Shown here: piece after piece, positions 42,007-51,447 of the stretch
How positions within the stretch are numbered: position 1 is the stretch's first letter
Layout of the letters: every line of letters starts with the position of its first letter
DNA from: an uncultured Actinomycetes bacterium
GTDB lineage: Bacteria; Actinomycetota; Actinomycetes; Mycobacteriales; Jatrophihabitantaceae
Direction: 5' to 3'
Assembly (NCBI GenBank): GCA_963733615.1
Contig: CAVTEA010000016.1
Span: 10,186-74,185 of the forward strand
DNA: 64,000 bases
The notes under the pieces: generated by a model
What the model was told of the DNA's origin: nothing
The model's input: the letters and a program-made list of their open reading frames with translations, nothing else
Database searches by the model: none
Position numbers and translations under genes: made by a program

Positions 42007-43427
42007 TCAGACGCGTGCCAGCTGGTTCGGCGATCGGCGCAGGTAGACGAACCAGGTCAGCGCGAAGCACGCGGCATAGAATGCGATGAACGCGACGTAG
42101 GCGGCGTTGCCGTTGTGGTAGGTGAGGAACGACTGCCGGAACGCGATGTTGACGAGCACGCCGCCGAAGGCGCCGATCGCGCCGGCGATGCCGATGAGCG
42201 CGTTGGCGAGTCGGCGGGCTTCGCGCTCGGCCGTCGCGGCATCGGCGCCGGCCTCGACCTGCCGGTGGGCCTTGCTGCGGAAGATCGCCGGGATCATCTT
42301 GTACGTCGAGCCGTTGCCGATGCCGCTGAACACGAACAGCGCGATGAAGCCGACGAAGAACAGCACCAGCGACTTCTGCGTCGAGGCGATGAGCACGACA
42401 GCGGCGGACCCTGCCATGAGGACGAAGTTCCAGAACGTCGTCCGCGCGCCACCGATTCGGTCGGCCAGCCAGCCTCCCGCCGGCCGGATCAGCGAACCGA
42501 CCAGCGGGCCGAGGAAGGTCAGGTAGGCGACCTTGACGGGGTCGACGACGTGCTTGCCGCTCGCGTAGAAGTGGGCCGGGAACTGGTTCTGCAGCACCTG
42601 CCCGAACGCGAAGCCGAAGCCGATGAACGAGCCGAACGTGCCGATGTAGAGGAACGACATGACCCAGGTGTGCGGGTCGCGGCACACGTCGCGCATCGCC
42701 CGCTTGTCGTTGCTGACGTGGCGATGTTGTCCATGAACAGCGCGGCGCCGAGTGCGGCGACGACGATCAGCGGGATGTAGACGCCCAGCATCACCCGGGG
42801 GTGGCCCTTGCCGGCAGTGGCCAGCACCGCCAGGCCGACAGCTGCACCGCGGCGACGCCGAGGTTGCCGCCGCCGGCGTTGAGGCCCAGGGCCGCACCCT
42901 TGAGTCGCTGCGGGTAGAAGGAGTTGATGTTCGCCATGGACGAGGCGAAGTTGCCGCCGCCGACGCCGGCCAGCGCCGCGAGCGAACGAGCAGCGTGCCG
43001 AAGGAGACGCCCGGCTTCGAGGGCAACCGCGACGGCGATGCCGGGACGAGCAGCAGCAGCGCGCTGACGATCGTCCAGTTGCGGCCGCCGAACTTCGCGA
43101 CGGCGAACGTGTACGGCAGCCGCAGCGACGGATCCCAGCGCAGTCGGCAGCGTGGTCAGCAGGAACTTCTCCGCCGCGGCCTGCTTGGGGTCGGCGCTGA
43201 AGCCGTAGGCGGGCGTCAGGAACAGGACGAACACCGACCACAGGCTCCAGACCGAGAAGCCGATGTGCTCGGAGAAGATGCTGGACACGCAGGTTGCGGC
43301 GCGCGATTTCGGCGCCGGCGCGTTCCCAGAATGCCGGACTCTCCGGGTCCCAGATGTCGAGCCACCGGCCGCGCACGACGGGAGCCGGCGCGGCGCGCGT
43401 CGCCTGGGGGCTAACGGTCTCGGTCAT
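42007..43427 (-). pseudogene. narK: Nitrate/nitrite MFS transporter, with multiple frameshifts
   Basis: The protein is spread over three minus-strand frames (ORFs 42519..43427, 42791..43288, 42007..43026). Pieces include RWLDIWDPESPAFWERAG, SIFSEHIGFSVWSLWSVFVLFL, GGGNFASSMANINSFYPQRLKGAALGLNAGGGNLG and FLYIGTFGSFIGFGFAFGQVLQ...GNGSTYKMIPAIF. Confidence 0.8.
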
Positions 43428-43551
43428 GAGGCGGCCTCGCTGTTCGGGCCGCCGGGGTGCTCGGTCATGAGGCGGCCTCGCTGTTCGGGCCGCCGGGGTG
43501 CTCGGTCATGAGGCGGCCTCGCTGTTCGGGCCGCCGGGGTGCTCGGTCATG
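43420..43551 (-). repeat. 41-bp tandem repeat, 3 full copies plus a 9-10 nt partial copy, overlapping the narK start codon
   Basis: The unit on the minus strand is ATGACCGAGCACCCCGGCGGCCCGAACAGCGAGGCCGCCTC. Units start at 43542, 43501 and 43460, and the narK ATG is at 43427... The three copies are identical. Confidence 0.95.
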
Positions 43552-43770
43552 ACAGGTCCTTCCGCTCGGTCGTGGGCGACGCTAGGAACGGCACGTTTCG
43601 GCTGCGGGCGGGTTTCCGAGGCATCCGTGCAACGAATCCCGCACATGTCCTCGCAACTCGTGTGAGGACGCCCGGACCGCACACCCATCGGCGTGGTCGG
43701 AGAGGGCTCCGTAGCGAGGCGTTAACGTCGCTGACTCGGGCCCGGAACCATCGGTGCGGACGGTTGAGCG

Positions 43771-45853
43771 GTGCCCATCGCGACGCATTGCCCGTACTGC
43801 GCGCTGCAGTGCGGGATGGCGCTGCGCGTCGACGGCGGCGCTGTCACGGTCGAGGCGCGCGGGACTTCCCGACCAACCGCGGCGGCCTGTGCCAGAAGGG
43901 CTGGACGTCGGCCGAGCTGCTCGACTCCCCGGAGCGGCTGACGACGCCGCTGGTGCGGGCGCACGGGCGCGCCGCTCGTCCCGGCCAGCTGGGACGAGGC
44001 GCTGGACCGCGTCGCGGCGGAATCCGCGGCGGCGCAGACCGCGTACGGCGCCGACGCGGTCGCCGTCTTCGGCGGCGGCGGCCTGACCAACGAGAAGGCG
44101 TACGCGCTGGGCAAGTTCGCCCGGGTCGCGCTGCGCACGCCGAACATCGACTACAACGGCCGGTTCTGCATGTCCTCGGCGGCGGCGGCCGGTAATGCGC
44201 GCGTTCGGGGTCGACCGCGGGCTGCCGTTCCCGCTGTCGGACATCGCCCGCGGCGGACGCGATCCTGCTCGTCGGCAGCAACGCCGCCGAGACGATGCCG
44301 CCGTTCATGCGGTGGCTCGCCGAGCAGCGGGACGGCGGCGGCGCGCTGATCGTCGTCGACCCGCGGCGGACGCCGACCGCGCGGCACGGCCACGCTGCAC
44401 CTGCAGCCGACGCCCGGCACCGACCTCGCGCTGGCCAACGGCCTGCTGCACCTCGCGATCACGACCGGCCGGGTCGACGAGGCCTACATCGCGGCCGCGG
44501 ACGACGCGGCTTCGACGAGGTCCGCCACGCGGTCGCCGGGTACTGGCCGGAGCGGGTCGAGCGCGATCACCGGCGTGACCGTCGCCGAGCAGCACGCCGC
44601 CGTCGAGCTGCTGACGACGCGCGAACGCGCGATGGTGCTGACCGCGCGCGGCGCCGAGCAGCACGCGAAGGGCGACCGACACGGTGTCCGCGCTGATCAA
44701 CCTCGCGCTCGCGCTCGGCCTGCCGGGCCGGCCGAGCAGCGGCTACGGCTGCCTCACCGGCCAGGGCAACGGGCAGGGCGGGCGCGAGCACGGGCAGAAG
44801 GCCGACCAGCTGCCCGGCTATCGCGCGCATCGACGACCCGGCGGCGCGCGCGCACGTCGCCGCCGTCTGGGGCGTCGACGCCGGCCGGCCTGCCCGGGCC
44901 CGGGCCGCTCGGCGTACGAACTGCTCGATCGCGCTCGGGTACGCCCGACGGCCCGCGCGCGCTGCTGGTGATCGGCAGCAACGTCGCGGTGTCGGCGCCG
45001 TCGAGCCGGCCGGATCCGCGAACGGCTGGCCGCACTGGACTTTCTCGTGGTGTGCGACATCGTGCTGTCCGAGACGGCGGCGCTGGCCGACGTCGTGCTG
45101 CCGGTCGCGCAGTGGGCCGAGGAGAACGGCACGATGACCAACCTCGAGGGCCGGGTGCTGCTGCGGCGACGCGCCGTCGCGCCGCCGCCGGGGGTGCGCA
45201 CCGACCTGGACGTGATCAGCCGAGCTGGCCGACGGCTCGGCGCGCCGGGCGAGTGGCCAGCCGAGCCGGCGGCAGGTGTTCGACGAGCTGCGCCGCGCCA
45301 GCGCCGGCGGCCCCGCCGACTACGCCGGCATCAGCTACGAGCGGATCGCCGCCGAGGACGGCGTGTTCTGGCCGTGCCCGAGCGCCGACCATCCCGGCAC
45401 GCCGCGGCTGTTCGCCGACCGGTTCGCGACGCCGGACGGGCGGGCCCGGTTCGTCGCGGTCGAGCACCGCGCCGGCCGCCGAGGACATCGACGCCGCGTA
45501 CCCCGTCTACCTCACCACCGGCCGGGTGCTGCAGCAGTACCAGAGCGGCGCGCAGACCCGCCGGATCGAGCGCTGCGCAGCCGCAGCCCGAACCGTTCGT
45601 CGAGATGCACCCGGACCTCGCCGACCGCGCACGGCGTCGAGCGACGGCGACCTGGTGCGCGTGGTGAGCCGCCGCGGCGCGGCGGAGGGCCCGGCGCGGA
45701 TCACCGACACGATCCGCGCCGACACGGTGTTCATGCCGTTCCACTGGGGCGGCGCCGGCTCGCGCCAACCTGGTCACCAACCCCGCCCTGGACCCGATCT
45801 CGCGCATGCCCGAGTTCAAGGTGTGCGCCGTCCGGCTGGAGGCCGTCGCATGA
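43771..45853 (+). pseudogene. Assimilatory nitrate reductase catalytic subunit (molybdopterin oxidoreductase, NasA/NasC/NarB type), heavily frameshifted
   Basis: Family peptides are recovered only by hopping frames: [152 protein letters not shown] and FMPFHWGG. Confidence 0.8.
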
Positions 45854-47287
45854 CGTCGTCCGTTGTCGGCAACGGCATGGCGGGCGCCCGCTTGGTGCAG
45901 GAGCTGCGCGGCGCGGGACGGCGACCGCGCCGAGATCACCGTCGATCGGCGCCGAGCCGGCGGCGCGTACAACCGGATGCTGCTGTCGCAACGTGCTGGC
46001 CGGCACAGCCCGAGCGCGACGACATCGAGCTGGCCAGCGAGGACTGGTACGCGCGCCACGACGTGACGCTGCTGGCCGGCGTCCGCGGCCATCAGCGATC
46101 GACCGCGCGGCGCGCACGGTGCCGTACTCGACGACGGCCGCGACGTCGCCGTACAGACGTGCTCGTGCTCGCCACCGGCAGCACGCGCGGTCGCTGCCGC
46201 CGATCGCGGGGCTGTCGACGACGGGCGGCGCGCACGTCGCAGTCCTTCCGCACCCTGGACGACTGCGCGGCCATCGTCGAGCGCGCGGCGTGCGCCGCCC
46301 GCGCGGTGGTGCTCGGCGGCGGGCTGCTCGGCCTCGAGGCGGCCCGCGGGCTGGCCGGCCGCGGGCTTGCCGGTGACCGTGGTGCAGCGCGGCCGGCAGC
46401 TGATGGAGCGCCAGCTCGACGCGGGCGCCGGCGAGTGCTCGAGCCGCACCCTGCGCGAGCTCGGCGTCGAGGTGCTGACCGGCGTCGTCGCACGACGGCG
46501 GTGCGGTCGAGACCGGCGTGGCGCCTGGACGACGGCCGGCACGTGGCCGGCGACTGCTGGTGCTGTGCCTGCGGGGTGCGCCCCGACGTCGACCTCGCCC
46601 GCGACGCCGGGCTCGCCGTCGACCGCGGCGTCGTCGTCGACGACCAGCTGCGCAGCGTCAGCGACCCGGCGCATCTATCGCGATCGGCGAGTGCGCCGAG
46701 CACGCGGGCAGGTGTACGGGCTGGTCGCCCCGGCCTGGGAGCAGGCCCGTGTCGCCGGCCGACGTGCATCACCGGCCGTAGCCGCCGGCGCTACGCGGAC
46801 TCGGCATCGGTCACCCGGCTCAAGGCGACCGGCATCGAGCTGGCCGCCATGGGCGAGACGGACGCCGCCGACGCCGACGACTGTAGAAATCGTGACCTTC
46901 GTCGACGCCGCGCGCGGCATCTACCAGAAGCTGGTGCGTCCGCGACGAGCGGCTGGTCGGGGCGATCCTGCTCGGCGACACCCGCGCCGCCGGCACGGTC
47001 ACCCAGCTCTTCGACCGCGGCGCGTCGCTGCCCGGCGACCGGGCCGCGCTGCTGCTCGGCCGGCGCGACAGCGCCGCGGCCGAGCGCCGAGTCGCCCGAC
47101 CGCGCATCCCGGACGGGCGACCGTCTGCCAGTGCAACGGCGTGACGAAGGCGCGATCTGCGCCGCCTGGCAGGCCGGCGCCCGCGACGTCGCCGGCGTCG
47201 CCGAGCGCGACCCGCGCGACCACCGGCTGCGGCACCTGCCGCGACGCGGTCGGCGGCATCTGCTCGACTGGCTCGCGCGCGCGCTGA
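45850..47287 (+). pseudogene. NirB-like FAD/NAD(P)H pyridine-nucleotide-disulfide oxidoreductase with a BFD-like [2Fe-2S] tail, heavily frameshifted
   Basis: The ATG at 45850 overlaps the upstream stop (ATGA). Pieces in several frames are [75 protein letters not shown] and TTGCGTCRDAV. Confidence 0.65.
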
Positions 47288-47327
47288 TCCGCGCCGCGAT
47301 GAGCCCGCGTTGCCGAGGCCTGCCTGA

Positions 47328-49885
47328 GTGCAGAGCGAGCTGCGTCGTCGTCGGCAACGGCATGGTCGGCCAGCGGCTCGTCGAGGCGCTGCGCGACCGC
47401 GACACCGCGGCACCGTGGCGGATCACCGTGCTGGCCGAGGAGAGCCGCGCCGCGCCTACGACCGGGTCGCGCTGTCGTCGCTACTTCGACGGCGTCACGC
47501 GCGGACGACCTCGATCTCGTCGCGCGACGGCTGCTACGACAGGCCGCTACGCGCTGTACCTCGACGAGGCGGTCGCTGCGCATCGACCGGGACGGCCCGG
47601 GCCGTCACGACCGGACGCGGGCGTACGGATCGGCTACGACGCGCTGGTGCTGGCCACCGGCTCGTACCCGTTCGTCCCGCCGGTGCCCGGCCACGACCTG
47701 CCGGGCTGCTTCGTCTACCGCACCCTCGACGACCTCGACGCGATCCGGGCGGCCGCGGCGGCGGCCGCAGCGCGCACCGGGCGGCGGGCCGGCCTGGTCG
47801 TCGGCGGCGGGCTGCTCGGCCTCGAGGCGGCGCGCGCGCTGCGGCTGCTGGGCCTGTCCCCGCACGTCGTCGAGCTCGCGCCGCGGCTGATGCCGCTGCA
47901 GGTGGACGAGGGCGGCGGGCAGCTGCTGCGCCGAGCTGATCGAGGAGCTCGACGTCACCGTGCACTGCGGCACGTCGGTCGGCCGGCATCGAGCCGCGAC
48001 GGCGACCGGCTGCTGGCCACCCTGGCCAACGGCACCGAGCTCGACCTCGACCTGGTGGTGTTCTCCGCCGGCGTGCGCCCCCGCGACGAGCTCGCCCGCG
48101 ACGGCCGGACTGGCGGTCGGCGACGCGCGGCGGCGTCGTCGTCGACGACGCGTGCCGGACCGCCGACGAGCACATCTACGCGATCGGCGAGTGCGCCTGC
48201 ATCGACGGCCGCGTGTACGGCCTGGTCGGCCCGGGCTACGCGATGGCCGAGGTGGTCGCCGACCGGCTGCTCGGCGGCGCCGGCGACGTTCGCCGGCGCC
48301 GACACCGTCCACCAAGCTCAAGCTGCTCGGCGTCGACGTCGCGAGCTTCGGCGACGCGCTCGCGACCACCGAGGGCGCGCTCGAGGTCACGCTCAACGAC
48401 CCGGTCGCGCGGCAGCTACGCGAAGCTCGTCGTGTCCGACGACGCGACGACGCTGCTCGGCGGCATCCTGGTCGGCGACGCGCTCGCGGTACGCGACGCT
48501 GCGCCCGCTGGTCGGCCGGCCGCTGCCGGGCGATCCGGTCGCGATGATCGCGCCGTGCCGGCGCGGCGAGTCGGCGTCGGCGCGCTGCCCGACGACGCGC
48601 AGGTCTGCTCGTGCAACGCCGTCACGCAAGGGCGACGATCTGCGCGGCGATCGCCGAGCACGGGCCTGACCGACGTCGCCGAGCGTCAAGGCCTGCACCA
48701 GGGCCGGCACCGGCTGCGGCTCGTGCGTGCCGCTGCTCAAGACGCTGCTGGCCGAGAGCGGCGTCGCGACGAGCACGGCGCTGTGCGAGCACTTCGCGCA
48801 TACCCGGGCCGCAGCTGTTCGACATCGTCCGGGTACCGAGCGATCACGCACGTTCACCGAGCTCGTCGAGCGGCACGGCACCGGGCGCGGCTGCGACATC
48901 TGCAAGCCGGCCGTCGCCTCGATCCTGGCCAGCCTGGGCAGCGGCCACATCCTCGACGGCGAGCAGGCGGCGCTGCAGGACACCAACGACCACTTCCTGG
49001 CCAACCTGCAGCGCAACGGCACGCTACTCGGTCGTGCCGCGCATCCCGGGCGGCGAGATCACGCCGGAGAAGCTGCATCGTGATCGGCGAGGTCGCCCGC
49101 GACTTCGGCCTCTACACGAAGATCACCGGCGGGCAGCGCATCGACCTGTTCGGCGCCCGGGTCGAGCAGCTGCCCGCGATCTGGCGGCGGCTCGTCGACG
49201 CCGGCTTCGAGTCCGGCCACGCCTACGGCAAGGCGCTGCGCACGGTGAAGTCCTGCGTCGGCTCGACCTGGTGCCGCTACGGCGTGCAGGACTCGGTCGG
49301 CGCTCGCCATCGACGCTCGAGCTGCGCTACCGCGGCCTGCGCGCGCCGCACAAGATCAAGGCCGGCGGTCTCCGGCTGCGCGCGCGAGTGCGCCGAGGCC
49401 CAGAGCAAGGACGTCGGCGTGATCGCCACCGAGAACGGCTGGAACCTCTACGTCGGCGGCAACGGCGGCTTCCGGCCGCGGCACGCCGACCTGCTGCTGC
49501 ACCGACGTCGACACCGACGACGCTGGTCCGCACCATCGACCGGTTCCTGATGTTCTACATCCGCACCGCCGACCGGCTGCAGCGCACGGCGCCGTGGATC
49601 GAGTCGCTTCGGAGCGGCGGGCTGGCTCGACTACCTGCGGGCGGTGATCGTCGACGACGCGCTCGGCATCTGCGCCGAGCTCGACGCGGCGATGGCCGAG
49701 CACGTCGGCGGCTACGCGACGAGTGGGCCGGCGTGCTGGACGACCCGCAGCGGCTGGCGCCGGTTCGTCTCGTTCGTCAACGCCCCGGACACGCCCGGAC
49801 CCGAGCATCACGCTTCGTCAGCGAACGGGGCCAGCCGCGGCCCGCCCTGCCGCTGGCGGCTGGTGCCGATGACCGCCGGCCGTGA
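47328..49885 (+). pseudogene. nirB: NAD(P)H-dependent assimilatory nitrite reductase large subunit, heavily frameshifted
   Basis: Pieces in several frames are [144 protein letters not shown] and GWNLYVGGNGGFRPRHADLL. Confidence 0.8.
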
Positions 49886-50239
49886 CGACGCGACCGATCG
49901 ACGTGGGTGGCCGCGTGCCCGATCGACGCGGATGCCAGCCCGAACGCGGCGTCGCGGCGCTGGTCGACGGGCGAGCAGGTGCGCTCTGTTCCGTACCTAT
50001 GACGGGCACGCTGTACGCGCTCGGACAACCTGGACCCGTTCAGCGGTGCGTACGTGCTCTCCCGCGGCATCGTCGGCACCCGCGGCGACGTGCCGACGGT
50101 CGCATCCCCGCTGCACAAGCAGGCATTCGACCTGCGCACCGGCGTCTGCCTGGACGAGGACACCGCGTCAGCCGTTGCCGACGCACCCGGTGCGGGTGCG
50201 CCGGACGGCCGAGGTCGAGGTCCGAGCGTGCGGCACTGA
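49882..50239 (+). pseudogene. nirD: Nitrite reductase small subunit (Rieske-like NirD), frameshifted
   Basis: The GTG at 49882 overlaps the nirB stop (GTGA). Pieces are PERGVAALVDG, GTLYAL and VLSRGIVGTRGDVPTVASPLHKQAFDLRTGVCLDEDT (ORF 50054..50239), in different frames. Confidence 0.75.
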
Positions 50240-50242
50240 GCC

Positions 50243-51447
50243 GGCGATCGGAGCCGCTGGCCGGCTACACCGTCGGCATCACCGCGGCCCGGCGCCGCGA
50301 GGAGCTCGGGGCGGCGCTGGAGCGGCGCGGCGCCAAGGTCGTGTACGCGCCCGGCGATCCGCATCGTCCCGCTCGCCGACGACACCGACTGCTGGCCGCC
50401 ACCGAGCGCTGCCTGGCCGCGCCGCTCGACATCGTCGTCGCCACCACCGGGATCGGCTTCCGCGGCTGGATGGAGGCGGCCGACGCCTGGGGCCTGGCCG
50501 ACGCCGCTGTTCGAGCGCCTCGACGCGGCCACGCTGCTGGCCCGCGGGCCCAAGGCGCGCGGGGCCGTGCGGGCGGCCGGGCTGCGCGAGGCGTGGTCGC
50601 CGGAGTCCGAGTCGTGCAGCGAGGTGCTCGAGCACCTGCTGCGCCAGCCGACCTGACCGGCCGGCGCGTCGCGGTGCAACTGCACGGCGAGCCGCTGCCC
50701 GATCTCGTCGCAATCCCTCGCGGCGGCCGGCGCCGACGTGATCGAGGTGCCCGTCTACCGCTGGGTGCCGCCGGATGACATGACGCCGCTGCGCCGGCTG
50801 GTCGGCGCCGTCGCCACCCGGCAGGTCGACGCGTCGCGTTCACCAGCGCCCCGGCCGCGGCGAGCTTCCTGCACGCGGCCGACGACGAGCTCGGGCACGC
50901 CGTCGACGCGCTGCGCTCGGGCGTCGCTGGCCTGCTGCGTCGGGCCGGTGACGGCCGCGCCGCTGCAGCGCGCCGACGTCCCGGTCATCGCAGCCGGACC
51001 GGCCGCGCCTCGGGGCGCTGGTCCGCGAGATCGTCGAGCAGGTGCCGGCCCGCTGCGGACTGGTGCTGCCGGCGGCCGGCCACACGCTCGGCGTGCGCGG
51101 CCACGCGGTCGTGGTCGACGGCACGATGGTGCCGCTCGGCGCGACGGCAATGTCGCTGCTGCGCGATGCTCGCCCACCATCCCGGACAGGTCGTGTCGCG
51201 GGCGCAACTGCTCGCCGCGCTGCCGAACGACGGGCAGGACGAGCACGCCGTCGAGGTCGCCATCGGGCGGCTGCGCACCGCGCTCGGCGACCCGCGCATC
51301 GTGCAGACAGTCGTCAAGCGCGGCTATCGGCTGGCCTATGAGCCCGAGCGCGCTGGATCCTGCACCACCGACGAGGTGAACGTCGAAGCGGCGCCGGCGT
51401 ACGCCGTGTCCGCACGGCATACCTGGATTTGCCGAGCGACCAGCTGA
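50243..51447 (+). pseudogene. Uroporphyrinogen-III synthase (HemD-like) fused to a C-terminal OmpR-type winged-helix domain, frameshifted
   Basis: Pieces are LAGYTVGITAARRREELGAALERRGAKVVYAP, LDIVVATTGIGFRGWMEAADAWGL, IEVPVYRWVPPDD and the C-terminal QVVSRAQLLAALPNDGQDEHAVEVAIGRLRTALGDPRIVQTVVKRGYRLA, read in at least 4 frames. Confidence 0.7.

What the first reader, a model, noticed from the sequence alone, without database searches (positions are those of the whole stretch)
43420..43551. 41-bp tandem repeat creates three identical, chained 14-codon mini-ORFs feeding into the narK start codon
On the minus strand the unit ATGACCGAGCACCCCGGCGGCCCGAACAGCGAGGCCGCCTC occurs three times in perfect tandem. 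It is followed by ATGACCGAG ACCGTT..., the narK start.

- 41 = 45 - 4, so each unit encodes MTEHPGGPNSEAAS.
- The TGA of each unit overlaps the ATG of the next unit (ATGA).
- The last mini-ORF is coupled in the same way to narK.
- A good SD (GGAAGGA, 6 nt spacing) precedes only the first ATG.
- The repeat length is not a multiple of three, and the copies are identical. This suggests recent slipped-strand or duplication events, and possibly copy-number variation.

The repeat could act as a translational relay or attenuator, a contingency (VNTR-like) switch for narK expression, or simply another lesion in the decaying cluster.
Basis: seen in the sequence. Interest (0 to 1): 0.6.

Follow-up and report, generated by a model that had tools for sequence, protein, structure and literature searches.

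The report
MIRU-like start-codon repeat at dead narK
The three identical 41-bp repeats in front of narK are real, but they are copies of a small scattered DNA element that lands on gene start codons and carries its own mini reading frame, as the MIRU repeats of mycobacteria are described to do; here it sits in front of a gene that is already broken.

Summary
Observation confirmed: window 43419-43552 (minus strand) holds 3.3 perfect copies of a 41-bp unit. Each unit is a 14-codon ORF whose TGA overlaps the next ATG, and the last one overlaps the narK ATG (43427).

It is not a local duplication of narK leader. Orthologous narK loci in two congeners read SD-ATGACCGAA-narK with no core (empty site). 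The same unit forms arrays at five other gene starts in this genome. It occurs at about 30 loci in three congeneric MAGs and as 1-4 units in 24 of 142 genomes of the family, often before nuoK, rpsH or ftsZ.

Each unit is about 9 nt of the host gene's start plus a 32-nt core. The core holds a 7-bp hairpin kept by compensatory changes (168/168 cells paired). Orthologous sites differ in presence and copy number (0/2/3, 1/3, 2/3).

This is the anatomy described for mycobacterial MIRUs, which are said to insert at start codons with a -4 nt coupled ORF. Ribosome relay is inferred, not shown.

narK carries seven frame-breaking indels and its neighbouring nitrate-assimilation genes are also broken, so the array cannot regulate anything here.

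This scan has noted MIRU-like start-codon repeats before on other DNA (113 notes). Verdict: new member of a known kind, moderate interest.

The parts
43419..43552 (-). Tandem array: 3 full 41-bp units (43550-43510, 43509-43469, 43468-43428) plus the 9-nt partial copy ATGACCGAG, which is the narK start. It is a 123-bp insertion relative to the empty orthologous sites.
   Evidence: TRF; sequence; empty sites in G012 and G011.
43512..43535 (-). Hairpin of unit 1 (GGCGGCC-10 nt-GGCCGCC). It lies inside the mini-ORF and its 3' arm ends 2 nt before the next ATG. The same hairpin is at 43471-43494 (unit 2) and 43430-43453 (unit 3).
   Evidence: Centroid fold with one hairpin per unit; -18 kcal/mol per unit; covariation 168/168 cells paired.
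43557..43563 (-). Native narK Shine-Dalgarno GGAAGGA, 6 nt before the first unit's ATG. In the relatives it directly serves narK.
   Evidence: Sequence; alignment of G000/G011/G012 junctions.
43579..43584 (-). TAGCGT, a candidate -10 box of the narK promoter, conserved in G011 and G012 (inferred, not tested).
   Evidence: Sequence.
42010..43427 (-). narK (MFS nitrate/nitrite transporter) pseudogene. Frame-breaking indels lie near 43290 (+1), 43125 (+1), 43042 (-1), 43017 (+1), 42988 (+2), 42840 (-1) and 42723 (-1). There are also in-frame deletions of 3 and 12 nt.
   Evidence: tblastn of the intact 477/481-aa orthologues falls in frames -3,-1,-2,-1,-3,-2; DNA alignment; Pfam MFS_1 on the intact orthologue.
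43768..45841 (+). Divergent molybdopterin-type assimilatory nitrate reductase gene, broken (frames +1,+2,+3,+1,+2). Context only: it shows that the whole cluster is decayed.
   Evidence: tblastn; Pfam on the intact G011 orthologue.
47116..49861 (+). NirB-type nitrite reductase gene, broken across frames. Context only.
   Evidence: tblastn; Pfam.

Best explanation
The array is an insertion of a small dispersed repeat of the MIRU type. The element is a 32-nt core (CACCCCGGC-NN-CC-loop-GG-NN-GCC-TC) that lands on a start codon of the form (TC)ATGAC. About 9 nt of the gene's own start are duplicated, so one filled site reads start9-core-start9-gene. The 41-bp unit then multiplies in tandem, with the units of an array kept alike (shown). 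Because 41 = 45 - 4, each unit is a 14-codon ORF whose TGA overlaps the next ATG, and the last overlaps the host gene's ATG. The inferred mechanism: ribosomes that start at the original SD (or at the 5' end of a leaderless mRNA) translate the mini-ORF, melt the stable hairpin that lies inside it, terminate, and restart 4 nt back. The host gene therefore stays expressed, probably with some loss per unit, and the insertion is tolerated. At narK the insertion is recent: three identical units, identical to a unit at another locus and 1 nt from a third. It sits in front of a gene that is dead, within a decayed nitrate-assimilation cluster, so in this window it has no working function. How the core moves is unknown.
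For: Dispersed family: arrays on C13, C18, C4 (two loci) and C2 besides the window. The strict pattern gives 13/12/11 hits in G000/G005/G004 and 0 for the reversed control. The covariance model finds 15, 16 and 26 units and 24 of 142 genomes in the family.

Empty and filled sites: narK in G011/G012; echA empty in 6 congeners and filled in 3; SHMT empty in 9 and filled in 2, with the locus-specific ATGACTCAG heading every unit.

Always on a start codon in the gene's orientation: about 30 loci.

Hairpin: all 168 cells paired. The two pairs left free in the search pattern show CG/GC/AU and AU/GC/GU, and slid controls give 29-67% paired. Further complementary arm pairs appear. Stability is -14 to -18 kcal/mol.

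Copy-number differences and concerted change between species.

Tolerated at working genes: the five other G000 arrays precede intact ORFs with full-length Pfam matches.

Published description of the same design for MIRUs: PMC12548453 (citing Supply et al. 1997) and PMC3184786.
Against: No transcription or translation data: relay and per-unit loss are inferred from anatomy only. No mobilising enzyme was found, and the core has no terminal inverted repeats. The 9-nt duplication could also come from microhomology-guided copying rather than transposition. The nuoK-associated units in another genus have degenerate stems, so the hairpin is not kept everywhere. Sequence relatedness to true mycobacterial MIRUs could not be tested, because no reference sequence was on hand. 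Copy number at narK is not verified by reads.
Confidence: 0.8

Rival explanations
1. Local slipped-strand duplication of the native narK 5' region, giving a narK-specific translational attenuator or contingency switch.
For: Perfect identity of the three copies and a period that is not a multiple of three. Copy number does vary between species at other loci.
Against: The 32-nt core is absent from the narK leader of G011 and G012. It is present at many unrelated genes. narK is a pseudogene.
Confidence: 0.03
2. A domesticated cis-regulatory leader: the mini-ORF plus hairpin is a regulated translational gate (the hairpin masks the restart site and the weak GAGG unless the mini-ORF is translated). 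It would have been kept by selection at core operon junctions (nuoJ-K, before rpsH, before ftsZ), and the arrays in this clade would be a side product.
For: Single units at the same junctions in several genera. The stem is kept by compensatory change. The hairpin's 3' arm ends 2 nt before the ATG and covers GAGG.
Against: Presence and absence vary at orthologous sites within one genus. The peptide is not conserved where the stem changes. There are no runs of regulatory codons. The nuoK units have lost the stem. There is no expression data.
Confidence: 0.1
3. A REP-like or IS200/IS605-derived palindromic element moved by a Y1 (HUH) transposase.
For: Its size (32 nt) and single G+C-rich hairpin resemble REPs. 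The unit junction TCATGA is constant.
Against: No Y1_Tnp (PF01797) match in any of the 13 genomes of the genus, while 6 control genomes ring. REPs lie outside genes, typically after them, not on start codons. A 9-nt duplication is not expected for that mechanism.
Confidence: 0.03
4. Assembly artefact: the copy number, or the array itself, at narK is a mis-assembly of a repeat present elsewhere in the genome.
For: The unit is identical to one on C18, and the genome is a 55%-complete MAG in 44 contigs. Reads could not be consulted.
Against: The array is only 134 bp and has unique flanks on both sides that match the narK locus of relatives. Arrays of 2-4 units occur at orthologous sites in independent assemblies.
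Confidence: 0.04

Closest known systems
MIRUs (mycobacterial interspersed repetitive units; Supply et al. 1997, Mol Microbiol 26:991, as summarised in PMC12548453 and PMC3184786)
   Same: Short (40-100 bp) dispersed units, often in tandem with variable copy number. They sit at start codons or intercistronic junctions in the orientation of the genes. Each unit carries an ORF coupled to the next start with a -4 nt (ATGA) overlap. Unit lengths are 2 mod 3 (41 here; 53 and 77 for MIRUs). Empty and filled sites have short direct repeats. Internal G+C-rich inverted repeats are noted by PMC3184786.
   Different: The host is an uncultured actinobacterium related to Jatrophihabitans, not Mycobacterium. 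The unit is only 41 bp. The duplication is about 9 nt rather than the tetranucleotide described. The hairpin is supported here by covariation. Sequence similarity to MIRUs was not tested.
Long-unit (65-83 bp) start-codon repeats in other families of the same order, found here with model R1
   Same: The same 5' 22 nt and 3' 11 nt as the 41-mer, the same ATGA junctions, a mini-ORF of 22-28 codons, tandem arrays, and position at gene starts.
   Different: The hairpin interior is 27-42 nt longer; the 41-mer looks like an internally shortened derivative. I found no published description of these either.
REP elements and their RAYT transposases
   Same: Size, a single stable G+C-rich hairpin, many scattered copies.
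   Different: REPs are extragenic, carry no coupled ORF and are not on start codons. No Y1 transposase was found in this genus.
MITEs
   Same: A non-autonomous small element with a target duplication (about 9 nt here).
   Different: There are no terminal inverted repeats: the only inverted repeat is internal. 32 nt is far below usual MITE size, and no parent IS was identified.

Membership tests
MIRU-type start-codon repeat (by design) | Short unit dispersed at many loci of one genome | tested here: met
   6-7 loci and 15 units in G000, 16 units in G004, 26 in G005.
MIRU-type start-codon repeat (by design) | Unit carries an ORF whose stop overlaps the next start by 4 nt (ATGA), the last one being the host gene's start, in the same orientation as the gene | tested here: met
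   About 30 loci inspected, all with ..TC|ATGA (a few GTGA) junctions and a 14-codon ORF.
MIRU-type start-codon repeat (by design) | Tandem arrays whose copy number varies between strains or species | tested here: met
   SHMT 0/2/3, msrB 2/3, DUF4873 gene 1/3, echA 3/3/4, nuoK 1-3. This is between species only; variation within a population was not testable.
MIRU-type start-codon repeat (by design) | Empty versus filled orthologous sites with a short direct repeat | tested here: met
   narK, echA, SHMT. The repeat is 7-9 nt of the gene start.
MIRU-type start-codon repeat (by design) | Transcribed within the host mRNA, with the mini-ORF translated | not testable with these tools
MIRU sensu stricto (Mycobacterium) | Sequence similarity to the mycobacterial MIRU consensus, and occurrence in Mycobacterium | not tested
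   No MIRU reference sequence could be obtained. The hosts are MAGs labelled uncultured Actinomycetota, Jatrophihabitans sp. and Pseudonocardiales. I therefore do not file it as a MIRU proper.
REP/RAYT | Associated Y1 (RAYT) transposase in the genome | tested here: not met
   PF01797 gives 0 of 13 genomes, and the controls ring in 6 of 14.
MITE | Terminal inverted repeats flanked by a target-site duplication | tested here: not met
   The duplication is present, but the inverted repeat is internal (positions 16-22/33-39 of the unit) and not terminal.
Known RNA families (Rfam 15) | Match to a curated covariance model | tested here: not met
   No match at E <= 1 in window 43000-44000.

The most novel reading that the evidence does not exclude
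The 32-nt hairpin core is the complete cis-requirement of a mobile element that targets (TC)ATGAC start codons and makes a 9-nt duplication, moved in trans by an enzyme not yet recognised. Array length then acts as a heritable dial on translation of the host gene. At core operon junctions (before nuoK, rpsH, ftsZ) single units have been kept as coupling devices. Mycobacterial MIRUs would be one branch of a superfamily spread over the whole order.
Probability: 0.2. Interest if true: 0.7.

Novelty: new member of a known kind. Interest (0 to 1): 0.4.

Why it matters
MIRUs are used worldwide for typing tuberculosis strains, yet how they move and what they do to gene expression are still open questions. 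One paper in the library describes them as confined to mycobacteria (PMC4213456). This family is smaller and cleaner: one hairpin with covariation, a clear 9-nt duplication, clean empty and filled sites, and a recent burst in three related genomes. It also has longer relatives across the order. That makes it a convenient model for two questions: what the minimal requirements for start-codon insertion are, and how much each coupled mini-ORF costs in translation. For this window the practical message is simpler. The array is an insertion in front of a dead gene, not a narK control device, and genome annotators should expect such arrays to shift or hide true start codons.

Tried and rejected
- Rfam on the region: nothing at E <= 1.
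- GC3 frame tracker for frameshifts: too noisy to use. It was replaced by tblastn of intact orthologues and a DNA alignment.
- Assembly-wide indel errors as the cause of the broken narK: rejected. The genome has many intact coding-like ORFs over 1000 aa, the five other array-bearing genes are intact, and the narK indels are not in homopolymers.
- Y1/RAYT transposase: absent from the genus.
- Getting a Mycobacterium genome for a direct MIRU comparison: the control genomes are not exposed as handles, genome G027, taken from another family of the order in case it was one (its identity is unknown), had no R1 hit, and the papers found give unit lengths but no sequences.
- Literature search for 'MIRU-like' elements outside mycobacteria: no hit for the term.
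- Metagenome scan for a filled narK junction: 0 hits.
- The 92-bp array on C11 as a second start-codon family: not obviously so, since it lies after a gene end.
- One Pfam call failed on a wrong frame, and one paper look-up failed on term syntax.

Full report
**1. The observation**

The minus strand of window 43419-43552 holds 3.3 perfect copies of a 41-bp unit (TRF: 100% matches, no indels, score 268). Read directly:

- The units are 43550-43510, 43509-43469 and 43468-43428. They are followed by ATGACCGAG ACCGTT, with the narK ATG at 43427.
- Each unit is ATG + 13 codons + TGA (MTEHPGGPNSEAAS*), and each TGA overlaps the next ATG as ATGA.
- GGAAGGA stands 6 nt before the first ATG.

So the description is correct. 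There are two small corrections. The first ATG is at 43550. Each unit also contains GAGG 7 nt before the next ATG, so 'SD only before the first ATG' is too strong.

**2. It is an insertion of a dispersed element, not a duplication of narK leader**

The array segment matched other places in the same genome and in two congeners. The narK flanks matched G011 and G012 with almost nothing between them.

| Genome | Sequence at the narK start |
|---|---|
| G012 | GGAAGGACACGTC\|ATGACCGAA\|GCC.. |
| G011 | GAGGAGGACACACC\|ATGACCGAA\|GCC.. |
| Window | GGAAGGACCTGTC\|[ATGACCGAG + 32-nt core] x3\|ATGACCGAG\|ACC.. |

In the relatives, narK (intact, 477 and 481 aa) starts at the SD-proximal ATG and the 32-nt core is absent. 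The window therefore carries a 123-bp insertion.

In G000 itself, TRF and BLAST find arrays of the same or a diverged unit at these sites:

- C13:58405-58537 (x3.2, 1 nt different)
- C18:17335-17440 (x2.5)
- C4:47765-47858 (x2.3)
- C2:110560-110695 (x3.3)
- a single unit at C4:55252-55297

**3. Anatomy of the family**

Every array ends exactly on the ATG of a gene in the same orientation.

- In G000 the genes are narK, an enoyl-CoA hydratase, a fumarylacetoacetase-like gene, SHMT, UDP-glucose dehydrogenase and a DUF4873 gene. All but narK are intact ORFs, and Pfam confirmed the four that were scanned.
- In G004 and G005 the genes include msrB, ABC ATPases, coxL after coxS, nuoL and opcA after zwf.
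- About 30 loci were inspected and none was an exception.

A unit is about 9 nt of the host gene's own start plus a 32-nt core. The SHMT locus shows this best. Empty sites read ATGACCCAG or ATGAGCCAG. Filled sites carry the locus-specific ATGACTCAG at the head of every unit and at the gene. At echA, G005's first unit still begins with the ancestral ATGACGGAT seen in six empty congeners.

The core holds a 7-bp inverted repeat.

- In an alignment of 24 distinct units, all 168 cells are paired. The two pairs that the search pattern had left free show CG 13/GC 9/AU 2 and AU 16/GC 7/GU 1, with none unpaired. Structures slid by 1-3 columns give 29-67% paired and no double changes.
- Further complementary arm pairs turned up later: GCCGACC/GGTCGGC, GCGGGCC/GGCCCGC, GGCCGGC/GCCGGCC and GGCCGCC/GGCGGCC.
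- These sequences are related, so the number of independent changes is perhaps eight, not dozens.
- The hairpin is stable (-14 to -18 kcal/mol). It forms once per unit in the centroid fold of the narK array. It lies inside the mini-ORF and its 3' arm ends 2 nt before the next ATG.

**4. Distribution**

- The strict pattern occurs 13, 12 and 11 times in G000, G005 and G004. It does not occur in the other ten genomes of the genus, and the reversed control never occurs.
- The named scan identifies G004 and G005 as uncultured Actinomycetota MAGs of one soil survey. Single units stand before ftsZ in Jatrophihabitans sp. and Pseudonocardiales MAGs.
- The covariance model R1 finds units in 24 of 142 genomes and 6 of 42 genera of the family, mostly 1-4 per genome. 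They sit at junctions of core operons: before nuoK (seven genomes, 1-3 units), before rpsH (six genomes, 1-3 units), before ftsZ and before nuoL.
- In other families of the order, R1 picks up units of 65-83 bp, all 2 mod 3 in length. They share the 5' 22 nt and 3' 11 nt of the 41-mer and have a longer hairpin, again at gene starts and sometimes in tandem. The 41-mer looks like a shortened derivative.
- The JGI metagenome collection holds only four single units, all intercistronic.

**5. Dynamics**

| Locus | Units per genome |
|---|---|
| SHMT | 0 (G005 and eight others), 2 (G000), 3 (G004) |
| msrB | 2 (G005), 3 (G004) |
| DUF4873 gene | 3 (G000), 1 degenerate (G005) |
| echA | 3 (G000), 3 (G004), 4 (G005), empty in six congeners |

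- At echA, G000 and G004 differ by one base that is the same in all three units of each array. This shows concerted change or re-expansion.
- At the UDP-glucose dehydrogenase gene, G000 has fused a degenerate second unit into the coding sequence.
- The narK array's units are identical to each other and to a unit on C18, so the narK insertion and its expansion are recent.

**6. The gene behind the array is dead**

- Against the intact orthologues, narK falls into frames -3, -1, -2, -1, -3, -2.
- The DNA alignment shows seven frame-breaking indels (+1, +1, -1, +1, +2, -1, -1), none in a homopolymer.
- The divergent molybdopterin nitrate reductase (43768-45841) and the NirB-type nitrite reductase (47116-49861) are also broken (names).
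- The genome elsewhere has many intact coding-like ORFs over 1000 aa, and the other array-bearing genes are intact.

This points to local decay rather than a general assembly fault. Whatever the array does at working genes, it does nothing for narK here.

**7. Mechanism**

Shown: position, structure, duplication, empty and filled sites, copy-number change, and tolerance at intact genes.

Inferred: ribosomes starting at the original SD (or at the 5' end of a leaderless mRNA, as the conserved TAGCGT-7 nt-ATG at echA suggests) translate the mini-ORF, open the hairpin, terminate and restart at the overlapping ATG. The gene then stays expressed, with some loss per unit.

Unknown: how the core moves. 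No Y1 transposase is present in the genus, the core has no terminal inverted repeats, and microhomology-guided copying is not excluded.

**8. Comparison with what is known**

[quoted passage not shown] It says this likely minimises the impact on expression, citing Supply et al. 1997.
- PMC3184786 adds a size of 40-100 bp, 40-50 copies, empty and filled sites with tetranucleotide repeats, and internal G+C-rich inverted repeats.
- MIRU units of 53 and 77 bp obey the same 2 mod 3 rule as 41.
- By design, this is therefore a MIRU-type element. I do not file it as a MIRU proper: the hosts are not mycobacteria, and sequence similarity could not be tested.
- Rfam has no model for it, and the term 'MIRU-like' gave no paper.
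- This scan has noted MIRU-like start-codon repeats on other DNA many times (113 notes). I used those notes only as context.

**9. Verdict**

The regulatory reading for narK is not supported. The element is an undescribed family of a known kind, with unusually clean evidence for its hairpin, its target duplication and its turnover.

**Limits:** no reads, no expression data, and no direct comparison with mycobacterial MIRUs.

Noticed in passing
L114:1730-1817 (G000:C4, upstream of the SHMT gene): A ZMP/ZTP riboswitch (RF01750, 58.6 bits against a gathering score of 39) precedes the SHMT gene. The 41-bp array (x2 in G000, x3 in G004, absent in G005 and eight congeners) is wedged between the riboswitch/SD and the start codon.
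   Followed up: partly
L032:1489-1600 (G000:C4:55252-55360): The UDP-glucose dehydrogenase gene of G000 begins MTSSPGDRTE-SLPKLTVIG. A degenerate second unit has been fused in frame to the gene, whereas G004 and G005 keep two separate units.
   Followed up: partly
L102-L113 (echA locus across the genus): A conserved TAGCGT/TAGTGT box lies 7 nt before the ATG in all congeners, which suggests a leaderless mRNA. In filled genomes the array would then lie at the very 5' end of the transcript.
   Followed up: no
window 43768-51366 (+): The whole nitrate-assimilation cluster is decayed. The molybdopterin nitrate reductase (43768-45841) and the NirB-type nitrite reductase (47116-49861) each match intact orthologues only in pieces across several frames. 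The HemD-OmpR-type gene (50254-51366) matches in one frame at 45% identity.
   Followed up: partly
L092-L101 (other families of the order): Units of 65-83 bp share the termini of the 41-mer but have a longer hairpin. They stand at gene starts (atpD-like, ABC ATPase, ilvN-like, PP2C phosphatase-like and others) and are tandem in G239.
   Followed up: partly
G000:C15:29378-29721, C11:76126-76346, C37:6270-6543: Other perfect or near-perfect long-period arrays: 90 bp x3.8, 92 bp x2.4 and 60 bp x4.6. The 92-bp array lies after a gene end and is not obviously a start-codon element.
   Followed up: partly
L071, L077, L078, L084 (nuoJ-nuoK junction, genus g51): Units before nuoK keep the ATGA junctions and the 14-codon ORF, but their stems are degenerate (GGCTCGC..GCTCGCC). 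The hairpin is therefore not maintained at every site.
   Followed up: no
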